64,000 nt of DNA. Source: Eledone cirrhosa (Eukaryota). A program made the translations under genes and the position numbers. Shown one piece after another: positions 190-55,911 of this stretch (its first letter is position 1; every line of letters begins with the position of its first letter). Below the pieces are notes generated by a model. The model was not told the DNA's origin. It ran no database searches and saw only the letters and a program-made list of their open reading frames with translations. The stretch lies in assembly GCA_964016885.1 (NCBI GenBank), contig OZ024740.1, positions 192,944,001-193,008,000 on the forward strand, read 5' to 3'.

Positions 190-2802
190 ACAGGGAGATT
201 ATTAGGAAGAAAATATATATCTTTTTCCTTTTTTGTCTCTCTCTCTCTCTTTTCTGAGTTAGAAAGTGATTAAAACGAAATGTTTTACTTTGTGTGAAGT
301 GTTAAAGTATTAGTTGATTTATTTATTATTTAACGATGGTATTTATTCATAAACATATTATGAAAAGGCCCAACACTACACACAACAGAAAAGAATGAGA
401 AACATAAAATCCCTAACAACTCTTTACAAAGAAGGCCTTACAGATAAGGAATACAACTACATCACCAATTTCAAAATCAGAACCAGCCTTTTCTACGGTA
501 TCCCCAAGACACACAAAAGCGAAATAATAGGTAGGCCTGCAAGCAAGTCACAGGCGTTTACATCAATATAGCCCCTCCTGATGACCTTAAATTAAGACCC
601 ATAATAGCAGGCACCACATGTGAAACCCACCGCCTAAGCAATTTCCTAGATATTCTGCTTAAACCTTTCCTAAAACATATAAAAAGCTTCATAAGGGATG
701 ACCTTGACATGCTCAACCACCTCCCAACAACACTCAATAACGGACATACCCTACTTGTAAACTTTGATGTCATCAATTTATATTCCAATATCCCACACAA
801 CCTAGGTATAGAGGCAATACAATTCTGGATGGAAACTTTCCCCAGTGAACTCCCACAGCGCATCCCTAAAGAAATTTTGTTGGAGGGACTCCAATTCATC
901 TTGGAAAACAATTTCTTCGAATCAATGCCAAATACTACAGACAGAAATCTGGGACTGCCATGGGCACGAAAGTGGCCTCCTCATAAGCCAACCTTGTCAT
1001 GGGATATTTGGAAACCATTCTCTACCGCAAAGTTCTAGACAAATACGGCAACCACTTCTACCAACACATAGAAAAGAACTGGAAGAGATATCTGGACGAC
1101 TGCTTCATCCTCTGAATGAAAGTATAGTTAGACTGTTTGAGTTCAAAACCCTTCTGAATGGTCTCAACACAAACTTACAATTCACAATGGATTACAGCCA
1201 TGAACAACGCCCTTTCCTCGATATCCTCATCAAGAAAACAAGCAACAAAATTGAACCAGATATATACTACAAACCCACAGACTCCAAACAATACCTTCCA
1301 TTCAACTCGTGCCACTCTAGACACACCAAAATGGCAAATCCTTATAACCTAGCCAGAAGGATCTGCACAATAGTTTCAGATAAATACACTTGCTACACAC
1401 GACAAGAAGAATTAAAAAACACACTTATCAGCAGAAACTACCCACCATCTCTAATCACCAATGGTTTCCAACGTACCCTAAAACTAGGCATCCAGGAACT
1501 CAGACATTCCAAACCCAGGAATGAACCGCAACAAAAAACTCTACCATACACCTCCACACACAACCCCCTAAACAATGAGGCATTCGACACCATCCTCAAG
1601 AACATTGCTTTACTAAAAAGAGACCCAAGAATGAACAATATCCTCCAAACACACAACATCATAAAGAGCAAAAGACAACCCAAATCATAAAAACATCCTT
1701 ACACAAGCCAAAATTCAACAAACCCTCACAATGTACAGTAACAAAATGCGGAAGGCCCAAATGTGGCATATGCATAAATCTACTAGAAGGTTCAACATTC
1801 CATTTTAAACAAAGACAACGTTCCACAGTTAAACACAACTTTACATGTGCATCTTAAAACCGTATCTATGTTTTGACCTGCTCAGGTTGTCAAGAGCACT
1901 ACATAGGACAGACAAAAAACAGCCTCCGTCAACGTATGACCATCCATAAATCACAAATTAAAATACAGGAATACAGAAAGATTGCATTTAGTGAACAAAT
2001 CGCCAATTGTGCTCTCAACCAACATCCAAACTTTAAAATGTTCCCCATTTACAAATTCATAGACAACGCTACTTTCATCCAACGTACCAATAAGGAAACA
2101 CATTTCATTAATAAATTTCAACCCCTACTAATGCCCTAAAAACCGGACCAATCTAAAACGGCAACAAACAATTAAAACATTTACAAGACAACCTCACACC
2201 CTACCTAATCTTTTTTCATAAATAAATTAAATATCACCCAGCAAGAATTGCTTCCACCTGCATATTAACTCTCTTAAAAGGGAAATCATATCAAACCTCA
2301 GTCCAGCATTTGCCTCCATCACGGAATCATGGATCAACTAAGCACTCTTGCAATATTAACACATTTTGATCTGCTTAACTTCAATGACTTTGCTTGTAAA
2401 TAACGTTATTTTTTCTTCCACATTGACTTTTTACATTCTACATTATGCACGTTTTTATTCCTTTTTCTTTTTTCTTTTCACTTCATAAACCTTGTTTGTA
2501 AATAACCTTATTCTTTCTGCACCTTCTGTTTAACATGTGCGACACCACACTAATGAATTTCACTATCATTTGATAATGCATAAAAATTGTGAAACCGGTA
2601 ATAGACAATAATTAAATATATAAATAGATAAATAATTGCCATTGTTAAATAATAAATAAATCAACTAATACCTTAACACTTCACACAAAGAAAAACATTT
2701 CGTTTTATTCATTTTCTAACCCAGAAAAAAGAGAGAGAGAAACAAAAAAGGAAAAAAATATATTTTTCTTCCTAATAATCGTCTCTTTCTCCCTATTTTC
2801 AT
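184..2802 (+). mobile_element. Penelope-like retroelement (Neptune-like), 5'-truncated and degenerate, with inverted terminal pseudo-LTR segment
   Basis: ORF pieces 709-1038, 845-1690 and 1873-2139 give RT motifs (FDVINLYSNIPH; RYLDD in a shifted frame; FLDILI; YYKPTDSKQYL) and GIY-YIG (CSGCQEHYIGQTKNSLRQRMTIH). 184-347 is the reverse complement of ~2636-2802. Flanked by (TA)n. Confidence 0.9.
2563..2604 (+). ncRNA. Hammerhead ribozyme-like motif (type I, U3:A8 core variant)
   Basis: ctatcat-TTGATAA-tgcataaaaattgt-GAAAC-cg-GTA-atag in the PLE 3' pseudo-LTR. Stem I is imperfect. Confidence 0.55.
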
Positions 2803-2843
2803 ATATATATATATCCTGACGCGTGTGCTTCCTCTCCCCATTT

Positions 2844-2951
<108 letters not shown>

Positions 2952-2955
2952 CCAC

Positions 2956-2992
<37 letters not shown>

Positions 2993-3562
2993 ACATCAAC
3001 TGCACTAGAAATGTTTCATTTGTATAATCAGGACTTTCCTGATGTATGAAACTGTTCTTATCATTTAGCATTCATTTCCTTATAACATACAAAGGCCTTA
3101 TTCTCTACTAATTTATTGAGTAACTTCTTTAACTGTGGTCATCTCCTGACACTTATTGGGCATCTACTCGTAATATAGATGAAAAAACAAACAATTAAAA
3201 TGTAATATTAATATTTGATTTTTAAGTGATCGTGTCTAATTAAATCGTGAAATTTTCATGAGGTCAGTTATTTTTTAAAATTTGCTTTGGAACATAAATC
3301 ATATAAGTGCTGATATTCATATATATTGAAGGGCTTTTTATGGTGTAGGGTAAGGGCAATGTCCTTAAATGAGGCAAAACATACCCTCGTACTTTTGGTT
3401 GTCAATGCTTATGAATTCATGAGCTATTATAATGAATATTTGCTTCTTTTTCTACTGGATGAGACGTGGACGGATAAAAATTCCCATATCTGTGCACTGA
3501 CGCAGTACACACACACGCACACACACACAAATAAACACACGCACACGCACATACCCACACAC

Positions 3563-3602
<40 letters not shown>

Positions 3603-3765
3603 TTCTATCTAGAGAGGACATAACTGATATACAGGATCGCACACATACATATAAGCAATCACTAAGCTAGATGTCTATACAGAAAACTACACACAGTCGT
3701 TCCCTCAACAAACGAGATTCTTTCGTGAAAGATTTTTACAACTGAATAAATATTGTATACCCTGG

Positions 3766-3882
3766 CGGATAAAATAGAGAAGGCGTTTCCCCGGAGGATG
3801 CTGAGGGAGACGCGAGCTGGAATTGCTCTGCTACGCGTCAAACTCAGCATCCTCCGGGGAAACGCCTTCCCTATTTTGTCCG
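3766..3882. repeat. GC-rich ~117-nt fold-back hairpin
   Basis: cggataaaatagagaaggcgtttccccggaggatgctgag pairs with ctcagcatcctccggggaaacgccttccctattttgtccg, with an inner gacgcg/cgcgtc stem. Confidence 0.9.
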
Positions 3883-4111
3883 ACGGGCCCGCGAGGTGGC
3901 CAGTGTGTGGTGCTTCCATTTGACCAGAAAAGTGAGAGATGGGGAGAGCGGGAGAGACGGAGGCAGTAACAATGGGAGTTTAGTTGCTTTGCGTTCGGAG
4001 CTTGTGTATATATGTGTATATAAGGGAGAATGCGTCTAAAAGTTGTTTCTTGTTTTGAAGTATCATGAAGATAATATGTATACCCCTATTTTGATAAATT
4101 AAACAGTCATT

Positions 4112-4490
4112 TAATCGCCAGGGCCTTTGCCTTTCAGTCTTGATCTATCAGTTGAAACGGCAAGAGCTCAGTCGTCAGGGTCCTGACCCAGTTATATAAC
4201 CATATTCTGCTAACCCTAGTAGCAAGCAATATGGTGAGTAATGGTTTTAACCAGCTTCTAACTGAATCCATCCTGATATATATATATCAATCAAATTACT
4301 AAATAAGAGGAAATAATAGACAAAAATATACCTTTTTTCTTCAAAGTCCCGACATCGCAGTTTCGCTGATCCATATGGAACAATTGTTCATTATGAAATA
4401 AAATGCACTCCCGTTGTGGGGCCAATAAGCTTGTCAAGGAACACCTCAGAGAAATGGACTGTTTTCCAGGCGCGTTTGTAACAAAAGTGA
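4112..4490 (+). pseudogene. Possible decayed fibronectin type-III exons
   Basis: Translations VVRVLTQLYNHILLTLVASNM followed by gtgagt (~4234), and ADPYGTIVHYEIKCTPVVGPISLSRNTSEKWTVF after a pyrimidine-AG (~4346), resemble FN3 strands. Stops are nearby and the resemblance is by eye only. Confidence 0.25.
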
Positions 4491-4705
4491 GAACATTTTT
4501 ATAGGCGGAGGGAGGAATTAACAAGTGATATATCGTTCAAGAAAAACGACTGTTTCCTTTTTAGCTAGTGAAAAAAGGGCGGGGGGAGAAATTAATATAT
4601 GATACAGAGATAACAAGCGGGTAGTAAGGTGTACAGAATGTGACTATCGTATTTGCTAAAGAAACCCGTTAGTACAATTTCGGGTTAACTGTTTGAGACT
4701 ATATA

Positions 4706-4895
4706 AAAATTGTTTCTACTTTTGGCACAATGCCAGCAATTATGTCAGTGAATTACTGGTACTTTATTTTATCGACCCCGTAACGATGAAAGGCAAAGTT
4801 TACCTCGGCGGGATTTGAACTCAGACTGTAAAGGGCCGTAACTCGATGTTGCAAAGCTATGCGTCCGACCCTCTACCGATACTGCCAATCCCCCA
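4706..4895 (-). mobile_element. tRNA-derived SINE (Meta-domain-like core)
   Basis: The reverse complement contains gagttcaaatcccgccgaggtaaactttgcctttcatcgttacggggtcgataaaataaagtaccag, the same family as 18565-19420. Confidence 0.85.
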
Positions 4896-4898
4896 ATG

Positions 4899-5733
<835 letters not shown>

Positions 5734-5992
5734 GTTCGTGAGCCCCCTTTTTTTAGTAAAAAGAAATTCAAACACTCATGTATGAAAAAACAACGTGTGC
5801 CCTGCCCCTCAACTTGTTTGAAGAACTTTGTAGCGCGAACTGGTGCGAAATTTATTATAATTATTGACCAATCAATCAATTTACTTCTCTACAAACCTGG
5901 CGTTTCGAGCCACTTTTTTTACATATAAAACAAGTAACATTCAAAGACCAGCCAGATGTGCGAAAAACCACAGACCCTCCATCTCAACTCTA

Positions 5993-6028
5993 CTTTTGAA
6001 AAGTAGAAGAATTGCGAAACCGGTAAAG
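5993..6028 (+). ncRNA. Hammerhead ribozyme motif (type I minimal, U3:A8 core variant)
   Basis: ctt-TTGAAAA-gtag aagaa ttgc-GAAAC-cg-GTA-aag. The surrounding ~5950-6060 is homologous to the PLE tail at ~54350-54445 (minus). Confidence 0.65.
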
Positions 6029-6085
6029 GAAACAAATAAATATATATATATTTTTTTTAAATAAGACTCCAGTTGCCTTTCCATT

Positions 6086-6437
<352 letters not shown>

Positions 6438-6540
6438 GTGTAGTGTTAGAACACTGGAAGGTAATATCCGTAACGGTAGAGCACTCAGTCCATGGGACGA
6501 GTTAGGTGGAAGTGGTTACACAACAGTTAGTTCACCATAC

Positions 6541-6577
6541 CGAGAACAATTGTTTCACCTTACGGATCTTCAGCTCG
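6541..6577 (-). ncRNA. Hammerhead ribozyme (type I minimal)
   Basis: Minus strand: cgag-CTGAAGA-tccgtaaggt-GAAAC-aatt-GTT-ctcg. Confidence 0.8.
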
Positions 6578-7340
6578 AAATGGGCATGGTTATACGGCAC
6601 AGGAAGGACAACCGTACGAACGCACATGCGCAGAACCCCGTCACTTCACACAGGCAATAATCAAATGCGTGCCAGAGGTGTAAGGGAGATAACTGCGAAA
6701 GTCCCAAAAGTTTTTAGTTGATAAGAAAAATTATTGTTGTTAAAATAATTCATTCAATCCGTAGCTTTGTAGTTAATCAATAGGTGTTTCGAGACGTGTG
6801 GACAACGTGTGAAAAATTCATGTCTCGTGTTTAGGCAATCACTATTGCATAATCTCTTTAAAATATGTATTCGTTCGTCAATACACAGTCCACACGACGG
6901 ATTTCCCCTTGTGTTTGGCTTGGACTTAGTGATGGATTTCCATTGAATGGAGTAGTATATACTTGAGTCCTTGAGGGACCATACGTGTGTCACGAGTTTC
7001 GTGGATGAACGTCTGTCCGGGAACCTAAAGGTCGACTGAACGAATAAATATTATAAAGAGATTATGCAATAGTGATTGCCTAAACACGAGAAATGAATTT
7101 TTCACAACGTTGTCCACACGTCTCGAAACACATATTACATAACTACAACGCTCCGGATTGAATGAATTATTGTAACAACATCAATATTTTTTCTTATCAA
7201 CTAAAAACTTTTCGGACTTTCGAAGTTATCTCCCTTATACCTCTCGCACGCACTTTAGTATTGCCTGTGGGAAGTGACGGGTTTCTGCGCAAGCGCGTTC
7301 GTACGGTTTTCCTCCCGGTTCCGTATAACCATGCCCATTA

Positions 7341-7378: not shown

Positions 7379-9845
7379 GTATGGTGAACTAACTGTTGTG
7401 TAACCACTTCTACCTAACTCATCCCATGGACTGAATGCTCTACCACTACGGATATTACCTTCAAGTGTTCTGCCATTATATACGTCTCCAGCACCGGTCA
7501 GCAGATTCTCTTCTGTACGTAGAAGTTTGGCTTTTAGCAGATTCTTCAACACGTGCGAGTTTGGCTTACTTCCCTGAGAGCGCTCTCTATATCCTCGTGT
7601 CCTACACCATTTTCTGTCTCATCAACGTCAGTATTTATACGAACTGGATTACTCCCTGAAGAACTTTCCAACTCCCTCCAATCATGTTTACGAAAAGATT
7701 CTCCTAAAAGCGGAAGATGACGTCAGGCGCTTCAGATAGCGAGCCCTAGCTTTTGACGGCAAAATTACAGGCACCAATAACACCTTCAACCTGAAATCGA
7801 GAGCCTACTCTCCTAAGGTAACTGAACTTGCTCCTTTCGAGACGGACCTTCTTCACTTAGTCGCTAACATTTCCTTTCGCAAACTCACTAACACCTTTCA
7901 AATTTAACTCAGAAATGATAATAAGAAATTTAAGTCTTCTAATAATACCTTCGTTCTTTCCGACATAACTAATAATATTTACGAAGTCGACAACACCACT
8001 TTCCGCCACCTGGCCCACAACGCTATTACTTCCAAATACAAAAAAGCTAACCCTATGGCCTACCACGACATTAATACAGAAGCCAAAGAACTTGCCGCCG
8101 CCCTTAAGGTAGATAAGAAGCTACAATCTCTAGCTAAGCGGGAGGCGTTCCTCACCCTGAAAAATCACAAGGTAAACTTTACTTCTAACCCCACATGTAG
8201 ACTAATAAACCCGGCACGCACAGATATGGGACTAGTCAGTAAGGCCATACTTAGAAACATAGTTAAGACCATTAGGACCAAGTCCAACCTGCGCCAGTGG
8301 GAGAACAGCGAGTCCTTAAAATCCCCAAAAGCGAAGTTTACAGTTTGACATTGTCGATTTTTACCCCTCGATCTCGGAGACCCTTTTAAACAAATCGTTG
8401 GACTTCGCTACCACTTACACCACCGTTGATGGTTTAGACAGGGAAATCATCGCTCACTGCCGGAAAACCCTCCTCTTCAAAGACGGAGTAGCCTGGGCAA
8501 AGAGTCTACAACTTCAGACCTATTCGACGTCTCCATGGGATCGTTTGACAGTGCTGACGTATGTGACTTGGTTGGCCTATTTATTTTAGACATATTACGT
8601 GTTAGATTCCCCGACTTCCACACGGAATATACCTCGACGATAGACTGACCTTATCGAGCCATAAAAGTGGTCACGACCTCGACCCGTTTAAAAAAGACTT
8701 AGCTTCTACCTTCAATGAGTTAGGACTTAGGACAACATCTCTAGCGTAGATTTCTTAGACATTAATTTAGACCTTCGCACCCACACCCACACACCCTTCC
8801 ATAAGCTAAACTAAAAACTCAGTTATATTCACAAGGACTCATGCTACCCTCCCACTGTTTTTAGAAACTTCGTAAATAATATCAGTACTAGAATCTCAAA
8901 CCTCTCCTCTAATAAGTCTATCTTTGACAGGGCGGCACCTTACTATAACGCGGCGTTAGCTAACAGCGGCTTCTCACAACGTATCACTTACTCTCCCACT
9001 ATCAACAACAGCAATAAGAAAAGAAAGCGCAACAATAGACAAACTATCTGGTTCTCTCCTTCCTCTGACTCACCGTTAAAATCAATGTAGGCAAAACATT
9101 TCCAGCCCTCTTAGAAAGACACTTTCCCATAGGTCATAAATACCGCTCCTTCTTTAACCGACACAAAGTAAAACTAGGATGCTCCTGCGCTAAGAACATG
9201 AAGGTCCACATCACCAGCATCCCTAGGAGGAGCACCCCACCAGGGTGCTCTTGCCGTAAGCCCGAAGCTTGCCCCCTTCAACAGCAATGTAACACACCAG
9301 CTGTAATTTATGATGATGTGGTCACTTCCAACCGACCAAACCAACCACAGAACATCAAATCCTATGTGGGCATGGTGGAGGGCCGATTTAAGGAACGTTT
9401 CCTGAACCATCAGTCGAAATTTAGGTATCCGGACAGATGTTCATCCCCGAAACTCGCGAGCTACGCATGGTCTATCAAGGACTCAAATATAGACTACTCC
9501 ATTCAATGGAAAGCCATCATTAAGTCCAAGCCATACGCAAGGGGAAATCCGTCGTGTGGACTGTGTATTGACGAACGAATAAATATTCTAAAGAGATTAT
9601 GCAATAGTGATTACCTAAACACGAGCAATGAATTTTTCACACGTTGTCCACACGTCTCGAAACACATATTGCATAACTACAACGCTCCGGATTTTTTCTG
9701 ATCAACTAAACACTTTTCGGACTTTCGCAGTTATCTCCATTACACATCTCGCACGCATTTTAATATTGCCTGTGTGAAGTGACGGGTTTCTGCGCCTGTG
9801 CGTTCGTACTGTTGTCCTACCTGTTCCGTATAACCATGTCCATTA

Positions 9846-23246: not shown

Positions 23247-23254
<8 letters not shown>

Positions 23255-23338
23255 AAGGTTTAGCAAATAATGAAAAAGTTTCAAAATAAATTTTAAAAAA
23301 TTGAAACTTTTTCATTATTTGCTAAACCTTGTTTATAT
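23247..23338. repeat. AT-rich hairpin
   Basis: aaacaaggtttagcaaataatgaaaaagtttcaa pairs with ttgaaactttttcattattttgctaaaccttgttt. Confidence 0.85.
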
Positions 23339-23523: not shown

Positions 23524-24289
23524 CGCTAGAGAGCTTAATTCGATTTGCGCAGTTTTTGCAATTATTGCATTTATTTTACACTTACTGAATTCATCTGCTA
23601 AAATCTGGGGTTTTCTCCCTTCAAGAGTTACACACGTGGTTTTACTACTACATACCACTGCGTGATTCTGCACGCTGGCGTAGAACAAAATACCTGTTGA
23701 CGAAGTGACAGCCTTGTTCGATCATTATAACAAAAGTTTATTATTTTAAGCAGGCAGTATAATTGATTTAGGTGTCGCAGAAACCCTGTACTGGATTATA
23801 CCATCTTTCCCAATGTCCGGGTACATATTTCAATTATTTTGTTTGACCTATTTAGCTTGCCTCGTCTTTTTGGCTTAGGTGCTTGATGGTTTCTTGACCG
23901 CCATCTCATTTTGCTTGGCCTTTATAACCTATGTTTATTGCTCTGGTCTTTATTTGGTCGATGGAGTGCTTGCCAGCATAACTCAGATATTGCGTTTCGT
24001 TGATTTTATACCTAATTGTGTTTGGTTGACGATATATTTAATTGATTTCCACGTGCTATTAGAAATGCTGGGTAAATATTCTATAGTTGTTGATCGCGAA
24101 TAGATAGCTGTAGTTTATTTATCTATTATTTCTTCATAGGTGCCTTTTAAACTTATAGCCTTGTTTAATTGTTTTTTTGTGTGGTTGATTATGTTGATTG
24201 GGAGAGGAGATGGTGTATATATTTTATCAAATGATTCTATGGACATACTTTATTGTATATATATATGAAGATATATATGTTGACATAAT

Positions 24290-25330
24290 TGATTTTCACC
24301 CCACGGCATCCAGGACCTAACTAGATAAGGCTCTTGATTTCGCTAGCAATTTCACCAACATAGACAAAATAGAGTGATTAGTCACATTACTCTGCCGGGA
24401 AACCTTCGTCTTTAATAATGGCGGCTCATGGATAAAGGAATCCACTAACAACGACCCATTTGATGTACCGATGTTATCTTTTGAAAGCATCGATATATGT
24501 GATTTGGTCGGTCTTTTTTCTTAAACACACTACGTAATAAATTCCCTGACTTCCATATGGTGATGACGTTCTGGCACTATCAAGCCTTAAAAGTGGTCAT
24601 GCCTTCGACATATTTCGAAAAACCTGGTCACTACCTTCAACAGCCTAGGCTTAAAAATTACTATATCCAGCAACCTCACCATTGTTAATTTCCTCCGTCG
24701 ACGTTAAATTAGAGTTACGGACACGCACATACAAACCATTTCACAAAACCAGTTAGAGATGTAGATACATTCATAGGGACTCTAACCACCTCCTATAATT
24801 TTAAAAATATTATCAATGACATTAGTAAGTGGGTATTCGACCTCATTTCTAGCAAAGTCATCTTTGATAGAACAGCACCCTACTACAACTCAGCAATACG
24901 AAACAGCGGTTTCTCCGAAAGAATCACTTACTCTCTCGACCAACGCCCTACATCTTGAAAAATAAATAGACATAACGACGTCATATGGTTTTCACCACCT
25001 TTCGCACTTAGTGTGAACCTAATATAGGTAGAAATTTCCTAGGCCTTCGAGATCTCCACTTCCCTGTTGGCCATAAATATTGACAGATGTTCAATCACCA
25101 TGAATTGAAAATGGGGTACTAGTGTACCAATAACATTAAATCCCACATCACCGGCAACGCAAATGTCCTCCACCGTAAGGACGCTCATACAGTAGACCAC
25201 ATATATACCCACTAGAATAAGGTGCAACACTCCAGCGGTGATATATCAAGCAGAAGTAAACTCCACCAACCAGAATCATGACACTGAAGCATTGACTCAT
25301 ATTCGAATGTCCGAGAGCCGGATCAAAAGA
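24290..25330 (+). mobile_element. Highly decayed Penelope-like fragment (similar to the 6444-9913 family)
   Basis: Recognisable remnants: gattttcacccc, FDVPM, ICDLVGL, IVNFL, PFHK, APYYNSAIRNSGF, IWFSPPF. Confidence 0.7.
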
Positions 25331-41718: not shown

Positions 41719-44700
41719 TTCAAAGGAATATAAATTAAAATAAGGAGAGAATGCTACATAAATGTACTGTTCAATATATTGATATATCAGTATGGTGTCC
41801 TGGGTGTATCAATTGTCTGCCATAATCAAGCGGTATTCTTCTGTCGAGGCTGCATTTTGTGAGATCTGACTATGGGTAACAAGATGGCCGCCAATGGACA
41901 TATTTACCTTACTAATTAGAGGGTGGTTTCAGGGGAAGTAAATCCTCGTGAGATTAGAAATTGTGGGTAGTTTATAGTTAAGTGCTAATTTTTTAATTTT
42001 TTTTATTGAGAGACAATGTAAAGGAGGTAACTTATAATTATCTAAGTTAGTTATACCTATTTTACTTATTAGCTACAAGTAAAAATGGGGCTATATGACT
42101 ATGTTGGGTCAAATATTCTGTTGGCGAAGGAATTAGCCCTTCGATGTTGACAGCTAATAGTTACCTCCGTTCTATCGTTAATCGGTAGGGGTCGTGATAG
42201 AGTTATGTAATATGCTTCGGTAATACAGAGATCACAATATTTTTTTCGTCCATTGAACGGTTGGGCCCTAGCTAAGATATCCCATGTTAGTGAGTGTTCA
42301 ATGTTGGTTAATTTAAGGTTTTTAAAGAGCCTAGCTAGAGATGTCGAACATCTGTTGTTAGGGTCTCGGAAGGAAAAGGAGTGCGCGTTAGAGCGTACCT
42401 TAAAAGGGTTAGAGGTAGACACGATATAGGAGCTGGTATTCGAAGCAGTTGTAACCGTGCACCTATAGATTATGTTGGGTGTCAGGCAGTGTCCCTTTAG
42501 TGGGCATGCATTAGGGTAACGGCAGTTGAAGTTACTTCTGCGGTTATGAGACTAGGGCAATTTAACCTAAGCGGTTGGTCAGTGTTAGAAGGATTAGATG
42601 GGGGAGGTGTGCTACTAGAGTAAGTATTGGTGTAGTGGCGTGGTGTATTTGATAGGGGTGGTGGTACCGCGGTGTGGGAGTTATACTGTCTTAGTTTATG
42701 ATGGTTACTGAATGCGAAGTGGCTAGCTAGGTTAGGTGTTGTGGAGAATGAGATTGTAATGTTATTTTTATTAAAGAGTTCGTAATATATATGGTTGGTG
42801 GGGAAATGTTTAGATAGGATAGAAAAGAAGCGTTTAGGCATATTAGTGGCTAGATTAGATGAGAAGGCGGTCTAAAGCCAGGTGATATTTCTAGGCCTAT
42901 TCCTTCTAGGGGTTCTAGTGGAGTTGGTAGGGGCCTTCCTAGGGTTATTATTACCTGATCATTTGTTATTTGTCATCCCATTGCTCGTTCCTATTCTAGA
43001 GTTGATATTTAGGTTGCTACTTGGAGTGGGAAGCAGGCCGCTGCCACCATTAAAGTTCCCTGTATAGGTGCTGTTACTGCTAAAATTCCGGCGAATCTGG
43101 CTATATGCTAAAGTATTTCTAGCTCTAGTGTTAAGTTTATTATGGAGAATGGCTGTGTTATGGCATTTAGGTATGTAGTAAATAGACTGTTCATAACCAG
43201 ATTCAGAAAGAACATTATTATAATATTGTGCATGGTTTATAAATATCTCCTCATTTGCTGATACATGGAGATTCTATACGAGATATATTTGATTACTGCT
43301 CGGATGACTGCCGGTGGGTGGTTAGAGTGTGGGCTAATATATGTAAGTATTTCACCTGGTTTATGGTAAGGGTAATATAGGTTATTGTTAAGATCCAGGG
43401 TGACGTCTAGGAAGTTTACTACTTTATGGTTCGGCTCGATGGTGATAGAGAGACCGTTATTTTTAAAGAATCTATGTAATTATTTTGTGAGCAAACCAAT
43501 GCCCCGATTAGTGCATTTGTGGTCTGCAAATAGAGCGCCGTCCCTGTATATTCCGCTTTGAAATTTTTAGATTTGGGCTTTGATTTTATGTAATAGGTAA
43601 ATTCCAACTAAATCGGTGATTTGCGCAGAGTCACTTGAGCCCATCGTGATGTCAAAGTTGTCTGTTCTGTCTTTTCTTGTCCAGAGTGCTCCGTTGAATT
43701 CAATGATTATCTGCCTAGCCATAAGTATGATGTCAATCTCATTATTGGTTATGTTCGAGTTGGTGCTGGCTAGGGTTAATGCTTTGTTGAGCAGTTCCTG
43801 GGTTATTGAAGCGTAATAGCTGTCAATGTCAAATTGGATGAACCTCATAGATTGCTTGGACCATAGATCGGAGAGCCATCTAATGACTTGGCCGGTGTTG
43901 GACCACAACTTGTAGGTGATATCATCCGGTAGCCCACGGATGATCCTATCAAGGATGTTCTTACTGATACGACCCAGGTCGGATGTGGTTGGGCTTATAA
44001 GTCTAATAGATGGGTTCTCTATAAAGTTTGGCTTATGATCCTTGAGAGAGAACCTTGTGGTTGTTGGTACATAAGGGTGGGTAAATCTATCCAGATGCAA
44101 GTCCTTAACCAAAGCCTGTGCTTTTCGGTTAAGTACGTTTACACTAGACGGTATAGCTTTTTTATAGTTTTTATTATGTTCCTTAAGAAGGAAAGAGTTG
44201 TAATTTTCAGAAGTCATGGTGTATACATTTTTAATTTTGTCAGATATAACATGTAAGCGGTGGCTATCTTTAAATTTGTTATAGTTGTTGCTAATTTTGT
44301 GAGGAAATTATTCTTGTTTCTATAATGCTTTTTGAATTTAATGCTCTTGACGAAGTTGAATGGATCTTTCTCAAAAGGGTCCAGCAGGATGTTGTGTTGG
44401 GGGTTCTTGCAGGTGGTAAATCCATATCTGTTTGTTGTACTTCCGGCGTCAGCAGCACCCACACGGTCGAAGTGGAAGGCTTTTCATCTTATTCTTCGGA
44501 TGAAAGAGTTGACACTCTGTATTAGGAGTTTGAGGTATGTCTTCCTGTCTGGGATAGGTATGGCCTTAAGTGAGATCCTGAGTTCCTACTTGCTCAACAT
44601 GGTGACTTCTAACAGTAAATAGCTCAACTACGGGAGCTCATGTATACACAGTTCAAGAGTAACCAATCTTAAAGAGATAGATGGAGATAGGCGAGGAGAT

Positions 44701-44998
44701 AGGGAAGAAGAGATTGCACTCTGCTGGACCCTTTTGAGAAAGATCTATTCAACTTCGTCAGGAGAATTAAATTCAAAAAAGCATTATAGACACAAGTATA
44801 ATTTCTTCACAAAATTAGCAACAACTATAAACAAATTTAAAGATAGCCACCTCTTACATGTTATGTCTGAGAAAACTAAAAATATATACAACATGACTCC
44901 TGAAACTTACAACTCTTTCCTTCTTAAGGAACTTAATAACAACTATAAAAAAAACTATACCCTCCAGTATAAACGTACTTAACCGAAAAGCACAGGCT

Positions 44999-46675
44999 TT
45001 GGTTAAGGACTTGCATCTGGATAGATTTACCCACCCTTATTTACCAACAGCCCCAAGGTGCTCTCTCAAGGATCATAAGCCAAACTTTATAGAGAACCCA
45101 TCTATTAGACTTATAAGCCCAACCACATCCGACCTGGGTCGTATCAGTAAGAACATCCTTGATAGGATCATCCGTGGGCTACGGGATGATACCACCTACA
45201 AGTTGTGGTCCAACACCGGCCAAGTCAGTAGATGGGTCTCCGATCTATCGTCCAAGCAATCTATGAGGTTCATCCAATTTGACATTGACAGCTATTACAC
45301 TTCAATAACCCCGGAACTGCTCAACAAAGCATTAACCCCAGCCAGCACCAATTCGGACATAACCAATAATGAGATTGACATCATACTTCTGGCTAGGCAG
45401 ACAATCATTGAATTCAACGGAGCACTCTGGACTAGAAAAGACAAAAAAGACAACTTTGACATTACGATGGGCTCAAGTAACTCTGCTCAAATCACCGATT
45501 TAGTTGGAATTCACCTATCACAAAACATCAGAGCCGAAATCCAACACTTGCAAGGCAGAATATGCAGGGACGACGCCCTATTTGCAATCCACAATTGCAC
45601 TAATCGTGGCATTGATTTGTTCAAAAAACAATTACATAGATTCTTTAAAAATAACGGTCTCTCTATCACCATCGAGCTGAACCATAAAGTAGTAAACTTC
45701 CTAGACGTTACCCTGGATCTTAACAATAACCTGTATTACTCTTACCATAAACCAGGTGAAATACTTACATATATTATCCCACACTCTAACCACCCACCGG
45801 CAGTCATCAGAGCAGTAATCAAATATATCTCGTATAGAATCTCACTGCTATCAGCAAATGAGGAGATATTTATAAACCATGCACCATATTATAATAATGC
45901 TCTTTCTGAATCTGGTTATGAACAGTCCATTTACTACATACCTAAATGCCATAACACAGCAATTCTCCATAATAAACTTAACACTAGAACTAGAAATACT
46001 TTAGCATATAGCCAGATTCGCCGGAATTTTAGCTGTAACAGGACCTATACAGGGAACTTTAATGGAGGCAGCGGCCTGCTTCCCACTCCAAGTAACAAAT
46101 TAAAAATCAACTCTAGAATAGGAACGAGCAATGGAATGACAAATAACAAATGCCCAGGTAATAATAACCCTAGGAAGGCCCCTACCAACTCCACTAGAAC
46201 ACCTAGAAGGAATAGGCCTAGAAATATCACCTGGCTTAACCCCCCCCCCCCCTTCTCATCTAATCTAGCCACTAATATGCCTAAACGCTTCTTTTCTATC
46301 CTATCTAAACATTTCCCATCCCCCAACCATAGATATTACAAACTCTTTAATAAAGATAATATTAAAATCTCATTCTCCACAACACCTAACCTAGCTAGCC
46401 ACATCGCATTCAGTAACCATCATAAACTAAGACAGTATAACTCCCACACCGCGGTAACACCGCCCCTATCAAATACAACACGCCACTACACCAATACTTA
46501 CTCTAGTAGCACACCTCCCCCATTTAATCCTTCTAAAACTGACCAACCGCTTAGGTTAAACTACCCTACTCTCACTAACCGCAGAATTAACTGCAACTGC
46601 CGTTACCCTAATGCAACAGAATATTTGACCCAACATAGTCATCTAGCCCCATTTTTACTTGTAGCTAATATGTAA
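44999..46675 (+). pseudogene. PLE RT open frame (558 aa) with YRDD->CRDD and deleted GIY-YIG domain
   Basis: LKDHKPNF..PSIRLISP, FIQFDIDSYY, FDITMGS, ICRDD, VNFLDVTLDL, YHKP. The junction at ~46614 removes the endonuclease present in the other arm. Confidence 0.85.
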
Positions 46676-49176: not shown

Positions 49177-50209
49177 AGTCATAAAAATGCTCCCGAATAA
49201 CACGCTATTTTAACAAATACCTGAACAAAAGCTCGTAGAAGAGGGTGTTTTTTTTTAGCGACGCATCGAAGTTTTTTCACTGGTCTGGACTTCATATCTG
49301 ATAGGTGTGCCCAAACATGAAGTGGATAAACACAATCTATAACTTATAAGATATTTTGTATTTATTAGATTTGTCTGCAATTAATGTCAAGGCTTAGATA
49401 ATTTTAGATTTGAAGACTTGCACAAGCGTTACTTGTATTGAAATGAATCTTTTAACTTATTGGGTAAATGATGAAACAGAACAAAACATATTTAAGAAAC
49501 GTCTAGATTGCTCTCGGTTATTATATATAGGAGTGTATGAAATACATTTGAATATATAACAATAGTAGTTTTAACAAATCATAGAAGGGCCCCAAGAGTA
49601 CTGATTCGATAGCTACACATTCATAACAAGTTGCGGTTTTAGGTTTACAACAAAGTATTAATTATTAAAGTAGATATTTTAACTATAGTAATTAATCATT
49701 GCTAGAAATGTAATCCGTTAAAAGAATAATAGAATTTATTCGTTAAAGAAAGGGATTAAATAATATTTAAATAACATTTAATGGATTACATAATAATTAC
49801 AGAATCAGCATTTCTTAAATACATTCATTGTTTGATTTAAGGTATTAGACACAACAATAAACAGGAGTAGAATTGGTGGTCCTTTTAGAAGAACTTTCCC
49901 GAGAATTCTATACAAAGTGGAAGAATTAATTCTTTACAGATCAGCAGATGCAAATAGAAAATTGTTTCCTTTCAAATACATTTTCAATTAATTCCTTACA
50001 CACACACACACACACGCACAGACATACACACACACACACGCCCCCCCCCACACACATATATATATATAAATATATATATATGTATACTTAAACACACGCA
50101 TGCACATATGCACGCACAGATACACATATATACTGAAACACACATTCACACGCAACTGCACACATATTAATGTGAGAGTGGTTTAGAGAAACAGAGCAGT
50201 TATATATAT

Positions 50210-50297
<88 letters not shown>

Positions 50298-50378
50298 GTT
50301 ATTCCGGGTTGAATCGGAGGTAACCACAGTAAGTAAGGTACTCAATACATAGCAGAGTATAAAAGTGTTAATATAGAT

Positions 50379-50431
50379 GAGATTCTACAGGACTAGAACT
50401 GTTTCATTCATTAGAAATCATCAGGAATCTC
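50379..50431 (-). ncRNA. Hammerhead ribozyme (type I, canonical core)
   Basis: Minus strand: gagattc-CTGATGA-tttctaatgaat-GAAACAG-ttctagtc-CTGTA-gaatctc. Confidence 0.85.
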
Positions 50432-50433
50432 CT

Positions 50434-50482
50434 GATTTCTGATGATTTCTAATGAATGAAACAGTTCTAGTCCTGTAGAATC
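50434..50482 (+). ncRNA. Hammerhead ribozyme (type I), mirror copy
   Basis: gattt-CTGATGA-tttctaatgaat-GAAACAG-ttctagtc-CTGTA-gaatc. Confidence 0.75.
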
Positions 50483-50486
50483 TCAT

Positions 50487-50526
<40 letters not shown>

Positions 50527-54254: not shown

Positions 54255-55911
54255 CAATTAGGTTTTTTTAAATAAAACAAAATAGATGTCCTACACGGGT
54301 GAACGTATAAGGAAAAGAAATCGGAAATGCGACTGGAATCTGTTTAAGAATATTTATTTATTTCCTTTTACTGGTTTCACAGTTCTTATGCTTTTCAAAA
54401 ATAGAATTGAGATGGAGGGTTTGTGATTATCTGGCATTTCGAGAAAAAACACAACTCGGCGCATGTTACAGATTTGGTTGGTTTGTATTTTTTAAATGAA
54501 ATTCAGAAGGATTTACCCTACCTCAATGTTGGTTTCTACCGCAATGATGCACTACTACTTATAGATTATAAAAAAAGTTAATATAGAAAGAACTAGAAAA
54601 CAATTGCATAAACTATTTAAAAACTTCAACTTAAGTATTACCTTAGATAAAAACACTGAAAACGTTAACTTCCTTGATGCTACCCTTTGCTTAGACTCTA
54701 AAATATATACATCCTTTCATAAACCAAATGAAACACTGCTTTGTGTAGATAACAACTCTAACCACCCTAAATCTATTTTAAACTCGATTACCAAAGGAGT
54801 ATCTAGTAGAATACCGACTCTTATAATGAAACTACATTTAACGCAAATTCCCAATATTATAATGAAGCTTTAACTCGCTCAGGCCATAAAGATAAAATTA
54901 CATTTTTACGAAAAAAATCGTCTAGTTATAATATTATTTCACACAATGTGGGCATGAATAAAATTAAAAGTAATAAAAATACTGACCACTCTAACTCTCG
55001 TATAAAGGGTAATAACAATGTTAACTCGCACCAAAATAAACATCCTAGTAATAATAATAAAAATATAAATAAAAACAATACTACAACTAAGCTTACAAAA
55101 AATAATCACACAAATAGATGAACTAATACATTTTTCAATCCCCCTTTCAATTTAAACGTTTCCACCAACTTGCCTAAGGCTTTCTTCTCAACTTTAGAAA
55201 AAAACTTCCCAGTCGGCCATAGATACCATAATCTTATCAATAAAAATACTATTAAAATCTCTCACTCTACTACACCTAACATTGCGAACCATATAGCTGG
55301 TAGTAATAAAAGGAAGATTAATAAATATTTCCAAGTGATTAAATCTCAACATAGGGAGAACCTGCATAACAACTTAGTACTGAAGAATACTAGTAACATT
55401 AATATCAATAGTAATAGCAATAGGAATAATAATCATCATTATCCTTGTAATCTTCCTAACAACCATGCATCTACACACCCTATTAACCAGCAAGTAAACA
55501 ACCAAAATAACTGCAAGTGTAGCACAAATAGAACTTGCCCATTAAGAAGAAACTGCTTAATCAAAGACATTATTTACTCCTGTACCGTCACTACACGTAA
55601 CGTAACATTTCGAAAATATATATTGGTTCTACCTCGAACTGCTTTAAGACGAGATATAACTCGCGCCTTCCCACTTTATCTACCTACATGCACTCTTTGA
55701 AAACGAGGAATAGACCATATACACTATAATGGGAAGTAATAGATGGGCCACTTCTTATAAACCACCGAATAGATTCTGTAACCTCTGTCTTTTGGAGTCT
55801 CGCATTATAATCTATTCTAAGTTAAACCTTTTAAATAGAAAGTTAGGAATTTATTACAAGTGTCAACACTACCACCGACACTCTTTCCACAATTTCAAAC
55901 CTAGCCGTTAA
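54255..55911 (+). mobile_element. Decayed Penelope-like element (Hydra-clade-like) preceded by an inverted pseudo-LTR piece
   Basis: VTDLVGLY, FYRND, VNFLDATLCL, FHKPNE, SNHP, CKC..CPL..CL..IIY, CNLC, CQH. ~54350-54445 is the reverse complement of a homolog of 5950-6050. Confidence 0.8.
54367..54402 (-). ncRNA. Hammerhead motif (U3:A8 core variant)
   Basis: Minus strand: ttt-TTGAAAA-gca taagaac tgt-GAAAC-ca-GTA-aaa. Confidence 0.6.

What the first reader, a model, noticed from the sequence alone, without database searches (positions are those of the whole stretch)
50372..50491. Perfect 120-bp palindrome consisting solely of two divergent hammerhead ribozymes
The exact 53-bp arms each encode a complete canonical HHR (CUGAUGA, 4-bp stem III, GUA) on opposite strands, inserted beside (TA)n with no coding DNA. 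A transcript from either strand contains one HHR plus its perfect antisense, so hairpin and ribozyme folds are mutually exclusive, like a switch. It may be the minimal product of PLE fold-back integration or a tiny mobile ribozyme element. A much more decayed look-alike lies at ~3012-3052.
Basis: partly seen in the sequence, partly recalled or inferred. Interest (0 to 1): 0.75.

Follow-up and report, generated by a model that had tools for sequence, protein, structure and literature searches.

The report
Back-to-back stubs of a Penelope retrotransposon
The mirror-image pair of hammerhead-ribozyme motifs is real, but it is one of about 2,500 such stubs of a Penelope-like jumping gene in this genome, likely made when both cut DNA strands copy the front end of the same uncut RNA, and it is predicted to fold as an inert hairpin rather than act as a switch.

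Summary
The two 53-bp arms are exact and each carries a type I hammerhead core. The 14-nt centre is not symmetric, and the insertion is 195 bp (50297-50491): one arm runs on for 75 bp. It is the first ~134 nt of the predicted transcript of a Hydra-clade Penelope-like element (PLE), joined head to head to a copy of its first ~59 nt, in (TA)n. The genome holds intact 713-aa parent ORFs, 11,383 exact ribozyme cores and 2,527 tight head-to-head pairs. Centres vary widely, so the pairs likely arise anew at each insertion. The arms mostly stop at a predicted transcription start (TATA at -30), often with an extra G. They rarely stop at the ribozyme cut site (28 versus 1,056 sites). 55 of 58 pairs join one long and one short 3' end, and 99% share the same variant in both arms. 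Best reading: both target strands prime copying of one capped, uncut RNA, and the two run-off cDNAs are joined. The architecture is known. This scan found the same kind of structure before, in this and other genomes. Not a switch, a master mini-element or an artefact.

The parts
50297..50491 (.). Whole insertion, 195 bp: long arm + 3-nt junction + short inverted arm, between (TA)n tracts
   Evidence: blastn to an intact parent copy covers 50430-50292 at 97.8%
50297..50430 (-). Long arm: positions +1 to +134 of the parent's predicted transcript (+1 = A of AGATTC at 50430)
50379..50431 (-). Type I hammerhead motif, stem I 7 bp, stem II 3 bp + U-U, stem III 4 bp with CUAG in its loop; predicted cut between 50386 and 50385
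   Evidence: -9.9 kcal/mol; the MFE of the isolated arm (-10.2) is the same three-stem fold. Stem I change A3-U49 to C3-G49 in 4 of 220 arms
50297..50363 (-). 'Tail': stretch between the family's two usual 3' ends (+60/+67 and +134 to +136), present on one arm only; ends at the base of a predicted hairpin
   Evidence: meaning taken from PMC11167929 (two RT start sites)
50431..50433 (.). Junction: one base that gives a G in front of +1 (the parent has C), plus 2 filler bases
   Evidence: cap origin is inferred
50434..50491 (+). Short inverted arm, +2 to +59, with one substitution at +6 (50438)
50434..50482 (+). Second hammerhead motif, stem I 5 bp with a U-G next to the cut site; predicted cut after 50477
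   Evidence: ribozyme fold -3.0 kcal/mol, while another fold of the isolated arm is -8.3
50201..50296 (.). Left (TA)n target tract
50492..50519 (.). Right (TA)n target tract; no target-site duplication can be read
2994..3070 (.). Decayed head-to-head relative beside (TA)n; both cores are broken (CUGAUUA, CUGAUGU)

Best explanation
This is a 195-bp, promoterless head-to-head stub of a Hydra-clade Penelope-like retrotransposon, likely made in one insertion event in which both strands of a cut (TA)n target primed reverse transcription of the same uncut, probably capped element RNA. Shown: the arms equal +1..+134 and +2..+59 of the parent's leader, which lies between promoter-like motifs and an intact ORF. 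Inferred steps: (1) the parent is transcribed from the A that starts ribozyme stem I; (2) the element's protein cuts both strands of (TA)n; (3) each 3' end primes at one of two start sites near the RNA's 5' end (+60/+67 and +134); (4) both cDNAs run off the 5' end, often gaining a C opposite the cap; (5) the two cDNA ends are joined by template jumping or end joining, with variable filler. The ribozyme rides along because it fills the first 52 nt of the RNA. In the stub it is predicted to be masked by its own antisense arm.
For: Parent: 39 other loci scored carry ribozyme + tail + ORF start; 4 of 5 fetched copies have an intact ORF; TATAAATA at -30, CCAAT at -84, ATG at +182. 5' boundary: of the first 30 cores by position, 14 begin at +1/+2, 1 at -6 and 15 carry the upstream promoter region. 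Only 1 of the 50 listed tight junctions holds clear upstream parent sequence. Extra G: of 58 distinct listed (TA)n-joined 5' ends, 17 of 36 that keep A+1 have G before it (10 C, 9 A/T), and 10 of 22 that begin at +2 have G (my hand count). Two 3' ends: 55 of 58 pairs are long+short, none long+long. One template: 25 of 2,527 pairs differ at an A/T site; the first 50 listed split 20:30, so about 48% would differ if arms were independent, and background arm differences are about 1% per site (28 in 58 pairs). Two independent ends: 10 of 50 listed centres are a single base with both arms complete; in 6 of 9 asymmetric position-ordered junctions the short arm is the complete one. Uncut template: 28 pivots near the cut site versus 1,056 at +1/+2. 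In vitro precedent: the Anolis PLE protein cuts and extends both strands, starts at two internal sites and prefers uncut RNA (PMC11167929).
Against: The transcription start is predicted from motifs only; no RNA was laid. The extra G could also be templated from the stem I 3' strand or added by the RT without a cap. Many junctions hold short snap-back-like filler, so fold-back chemistry takes part. The 99% arm concordance also fits fold-back, two RNAs from one source locus, or gene conversion. The 6-of-9 count is small. Few cut-site ends could reflect loss of cut RNA or of very short inserts rather than no cutting; 47 sites do join at stem I. PMC11167929 studied a different clade and found no strand preference for start sites, whereas one long and one short end is the rule here. 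Pfam gave only a weak GIY-YIG match (E=0.069) and no RT family; the clade call rests on motifs.
Confidence: 0.72

Rival explanations
1. Same parent, but the palindrome forms by fold-back: one cDNA (or an antisense template, as proposed in PMC3846280) primes on itself and copies back.
For: Arms are 99% concordant. Many centres look like a 3-5 nt loop or hold filler copied from next to the junction. PMC3846280 reads junction palindromes as self-priming (passages).
Against: Single-base centres with both arms complete (10 of 50) leave no loop. Fold-back of the long cDNA needs the long arm complete, yet the short arm is the complete one in 6 of 9. The short arm ends at +67, the same 3' end as non-inverted and full-length copies.
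Confidence: 0.15
2. The 5' boundary is not a transcription start but an RT stall at ribozyme stem I or a splice acceptor (the parent reads poly-T...CAG there).
For: +1 coincides with the first base of stem I, and the upstream sequence resembles a 3' splice site. In D. virilis Penelope an intron ends at the 5' end of helix I (PMC4209133).
Against: Splicing would put a constant exon upstream, but upstream letters are heterogeneous. 5,074 cores read through this point into the promoter, so it is no hard block. TATA and CCAAT spacing fit a start at +1.
Confidence: 0.07
3. A small palindromic master element (MITE-like or retrozyme-like) is itself transcribed and amplified.
For: 40 scored loci match the full 120 bp at 97-100%, and one centre recurs often among them.
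Against: Centres vary widely. The recurring centre occurs in both orientations relative to the tail and on three arm variants. The stub lacks the promoter motifs. The same layout occurs at many lengths (L047, L050/L061, L077, L085, L107).
Confidence: 0.04
4. A functional hairpin/ribozyme switch used by the host.
For: The two folds exclude each other.
Against: An energy gap of about 80 kcal/mol, antisense made first on both strands, thousands of dispersed young copies in microsatellites, and no ligand or trigger part.
Confidence: 0.01
5. Assembly fold-back artefact.
For: Depth over the centre is far lower than over the left arm in short-read runs, and no listed piece spans this whole locus.
Against: 2,527 dispersed pairs with unequal arms and varied centres; arms differ by private substitutions; contigs of two runs cross a junction of this family (X1 record 8, X4 record 15), though these runs may come from the assembly's own study.
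Confidence: 0.01

Closest known systems
Insertion unit of endonuclease-bearing Penelope-like elements: pLTR with adjacent inverted 5'-truncated copy and one-sided tail (PMC8557442, PMC3846280; passages)
   Same: Head-to-head inverted copy, tail on one end only, palindromic junction, (TA)n target, hammerhead in the pLTR.
   Different: Here the unit has shrunk to the first 134 and 59 nt of the predicted transcript, with no ORF or promoter; this form occurs about 2,500 times; the tail is about 70 nt, not 30-40.
Hydra clade of C-terminal EN+ PLEs (PMC8557442, section 11; Hydra-1_Obim, Hydra-1_Ajap in its supplement)
   Same: Parent ORF has RWR, DKT, CxCx5C, CxxC and CxH around the conserved E and N, a C-terminal GIY-YIG-like domain, a hammerhead and (TA)n targeting.
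   Different: Parent unit is about 5.0 kb because of a long microsatellite-rich 3' region (Hydra are generally under 3 kb). It is not the listed Hydra-1_Obim (N-termini differ by eye; a 12-nt core motif had 0 hits in the supplement).
PAc (Poseidon of Anolis) in vitro mechanism (PMC11167929)
   Same: Both strands extended, two internal start sites defining a tail, uncut RNA as main template, AT-rich target.
   Different: Different clade; start sites here lie in the leader, upstream of the ATG; in the parts I read that paper does not derive inverted insertions from the reaction.
Opposite-strand dual minimal hammerheads of Schistosoma PLEs (PMC4209133)
   Same: Two hammerheads close together on opposite strands, derived from PLEs.
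   Different: Reported 100-700 bp apart; here the cores are 14 nt apart, and the motif has a 4-bp stem III and short stem II, unlike the min-HHR.
Non-LTR retrozymes (10.64898/2026.07.22.740005, part 1 of 5; PMC7229834, listing only)
   Same: Small, non-coding, PLE-derived, type I hammerhead.
   Different: Retrozymes are head-to-tail arrays that give unit-length RNAs; this is a head-to-head pair predicted to give double-stranded RNA.

Membership tests
EN+ PLE insertion | Derived from an element with one RT + GIY-YIG ORF flanked by pLTRs | tested here: met
   L136: 713-aa ORF between two pLTR copies 99.6% alike over 755 bp. Pfam support is weak; RT motifs read by eye.
EN+ PLE insertion | Inverted 5'-truncated copy adjacent to the 5' end | tested here: met
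   also beside a full-length copy, L139
EN+ PLE insertion | Tail on one end only | tested here: met
   55 of 58 pairs long+short; about 70 nt
EN+ PLE insertion | Target-site duplication | tested here: inconclusive
   Both flanks are (TA)n
Hydra clade | RWK motif | tested here: met
   IRWRAFF (R for K)
Hydra clade | DKG modified to DKT | tested here: met
   SSDKTKN
Hydra clade | CxCx5C linker; CxxC and CxH around conserved E and N | tested here: met
   CNCLNKETC; CDLC...E...N...CMH
Hydra clade | CCHH motif absent from the endonuclease | tested here: inconclusive
   Two cysteines 8 residues apart lie between the GIY-like and YIG motifs, not a close pair; judged by eye, not aligned
Hydra clade | (TA)n insertion and hammerhead present | tested here: met
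Hydra clade | Generally under 3 kb | tested here: not met
   L136 unit 2189-7218, about 5.0 kb; stated in the paper as a tendency
Hydra clade | Placement in the RT phylogeny | not tested
   Reference proteins were not held as tool sequences
Type I hammerhead ribozyme | CUGANGA and GAAA core, NUH cut site, stems I-III | tested here: met
   compensatory stem I change in 4 of 220 arms; subfamily variation concentrates in loop II
Type I hammerhead ribozyme | G10.1-C11.1 pair | tested here: not met
   U-U in 218 of 220 arms; no Rfam hammerhead match
Type I hammerhead ribozyme | Self-cleavage | not testable with these tools
   Needs an assay
Non-LTR retrozyme | Head-to-tail tandem units each with a hammerhead | tested here: not met
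   Single head-to-head pair
MITE | Fixed ends with terminal inverted repeats and a constant interior | tested here: not met
   Unequal ends and variable centres

The most novel reading that the evidence does not exclude
These ~2,500 stubs are a genomic record of a Penelope 'double strong-stop' reaction: a dimeric RT-endonuclease primes both target strands on one capped, uncut RNA at two fixed sites, both cDNAs run off the cap and are joined. This would explain PLE inverted repeats in general, against the published antisense self-priming idea, and would map the start site and show that the hammerhead is mostly uncut during copying. Read-through of the stubs would also seed thousands of perfect hairpins against the element's own leader, a possible self-silencing route.
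Probability: 0.45. Interest if true: 0.6.

Novelty: new member of a known kind. Interest (0 to 1): 0.35.

Why it matters
As a feature it is ordinary: a by-product of a very active retrotransposon family, not a new RNA device. Its value is statistical. PMC8557442 names the formation of tandem and inverted PLE structures as an open question. Thousands of very short, young junctions give counts (end positions, extra G, arm concordance, cut-site versus start-site pivots) that separate the proposed mechanisms, and intact parent copies make a direct test possible.

Tried and rejected
Rfam: no hammerhead match in the window or the local stretch; the miRNA matches reflect any long hairpin and lie below gathering scores. 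PDB sequence search of the parent ORF: nothing below E=0.1. The protein atlas gave no answer. Run search: no RNA holder listed, so expression is open. My first clade guess, Nematis/Neptune, was dropped after checking Hydra motifs. A fixed ~590-bp non-autonomous parent was considered and dropped: those copies begin at a microsatellite tract of the full element's 3' region. A scan of 791 kb of held loci for tight head-to-head canonical cores of other families found one (L033, gap 58 nt), so generality across families is not shown here. Literature searches for the run-off reading (Penelope/strong-stop/pLTR; twin priming/untemplated; head-to-head/hammerhead, 0 papers; transcription start/palindrome) listed no paper stating it; the library lacks most subscription papers, and supplements of PMC11167929 and PMC3846280 were not read and may bear on it. 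Long reads across this exact locus were not available.

Full report
Observation. The arms 50372-50424 and 50439-50491 are exact reverse complements over 53 bp; 6 of the 14 central positions are asymmetric. The stretch folds as one hairpin at -96.7 (+) or -92.1 (-) kcal/mol. Each strand reads CUGAUGA, a weak stem II (3 bp plus U-U at 10.1-11.1), GAAA, a 4-bp stem III and GUA. The isolated minus arm folds best as the three-stem hammerhead (-10.2); the plus arm does not (-3.0 versus -8.3). Rfam lists no hammerhead family there. The hammerhead numbering and the NUH rule are from my own knowledge. Support from the family is modest: a two-sided stem I change in 4 of 220 arms.

It is a repeat, and larger than stated. 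A search of G000 (3.0 Gb) gave 866 candidates; the 40 scored match the 120 bp at 97-100%. All 30 fetched carry the same ~75-bp extension on one side and end in (TA)n. The insertion is therefore 50297-50491. Loci chosen by the extension alone show other pivots and longer, non-inverted copies, and longer palindromes of the same layout (L047, L050/L061, L077, L085, L107).

The parent. In L048 the extension runs on into a reading frame. 39 other scored loci do the same, and 4 of 5 fetched copies hold an intact ORF. L136 reads pLTR, 713-aa ORF, long microsatellite-rich 3' region, pLTR. Its motifs (RWR, DKT, CxCx5C, CxxC, CxH) fit the Hydra clade as defined in PMC8557442 (section 11). I checked Hydra after earlier scan notes named it. 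Pfam gave only a weak GIY-YIG match, and no tree was built. Taking the A that begins stem I as +1, TATAAATA lies at -30, CCAAT at -84 and the ATG at +182. That this spacing marks a polymerase II start is from my own knowledge.

Counts. Exact patterns find 11,383 cores, 5,074 with upstream parent sequence and 2,527 head-to-head pairs with a 4-24 nt spacer; reversed-pattern controls are 0. Among the first 30 cores by position, 14 begin at +1/+2, one at -6 and 15 carry the promoter region (the pattern cannot see starts beyond +2). 3' ends fall at +60 to +67 or +131 to +139, or run into the ORF. Of 58 pairs in held loci, 55 join one long and one short end (this set is partly chosen by likeness; in the position-ordered subset 23 of 26). 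Pivots with both arms reaching +2 number 1,056; pivots near the cut site number 28; 47 sites join through stem I. In my hand count of the 58 distinct (TA)n-joined 5' ends listed, 17 of 36 that keep A+1 have a G before it, where the parent has C. PMC11702581 (passage) attributes such an extra G to the mRNA cap for L1.

Mechanism. The arms agree at a common A/T site in all but 25 of 2,527 pairs, close to the background difference between arms, so one template or one source gave both. Simple fold-back of a long cDNA needs a loop and a complete long arm. Yet 10 of 50 listed centres are a single base with both arms complete, and the short arm is the complete one in 6 of 9 asymmetric junctions. PMC11167929 (parts 1-2 of 4 and passages) shows a PLE protein cutting and extending both strands from two internal start sites on uncut RNA. 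Together these favour two target-primed cDNAs that run off the RNA's 5' end and are joined. The start site, cap and joining step are inferred. Against: no RNA data, small asymmetric sample, snap-back-like filler at many junctions, and other sources for the extra G.

Function. The stub lacks the parent's promoter motifs. A read-through transcript on either strand makes the antisense arm first, so the ribozyme is predicted never to fold. This is an off state, not a switch. Raw DNA reads of two other samples carry the arm and tail in thousands of reads, and contigs of two runs cross a family junction; none spans this locus, so artefact is unlikely but not excluded for this copy by reads.

Known or new. 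Inverted 5'-truncated copies with a one-sided tail are standard for PLEs (PMC8557442 and PMC3846280, passages). Opposite-strand hammerhead pairs 100-700 bp apart are in PMC4209133 (parts 1-2 of 4). PMC3846280 explains junction palindromes by self-priming on an antisense template. My searches listed no paper with the run-off reading. Earlier scan notes report like structures here and in other genomes, one with the same reading; these are not independent support. Verdict: real, ordinary in kind, useful as a mechanistic footprint. Interest 0.35.

Noticed in passing
window 6573(-), 7345(+), 7641-9590, 9850(+): A textbook PLE of another family: inverted hammerhead, direct hammerhead, broken ORF 33-44% identical to the parent studied here, and a 3' hammerhead.
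   Followed up: partly
window 22005(-) and 22620(+); 42126-46408; 24273-25176; 54453-55902: Another divergent hammerhead-core pair 615 bp apart, an inverted pair of PLE ORF pieces, and further PLE fragments. The window is crowded with PLEs.
   Followed up: no
L047 (minus strand, about 1075-1280); related pieces in L042, L057, L065: A second family forms the same long-arm/short-arm palindrome in (TA)n without a full canonical core, and shares an 11-nt tail motif (GTATTGAGTAC) with this family, a candidate protein-binding site.
   Followed up: partly
L224-L225 (G000:C1:83.68-83.69 Mb): About a dozen head-to-tail ~1.08-kb pLTR units, each with promoter motifs, hammerhead and long tail, beside an element body: retrozyme-like array.
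   Followed up: partly
G000 whole genome: Core patterns are strand-biased (6,912 vs 4,471; 3,590 vs 1,484), which suggests large tandem arrays somewhere.
   Followed up: no
L136 +103 to +138 of the leader: The long 3' end sits at the base of a predicted hairpin, like the stem-loop start reported for PAc.
   Followed up: partly
window 3779-3869 and 23247-23338: Two other inverted repeats with 26-bp exact arms and no hammerhead core.
   Followed up: no
L138 6457-7998; L140 2-2794(-): A 514-aa frame with a cysteine-rich N-terminal part and Q/H repeats, and a 931-aa LINE-like RT frame (labels by eye).
   Followed up: no
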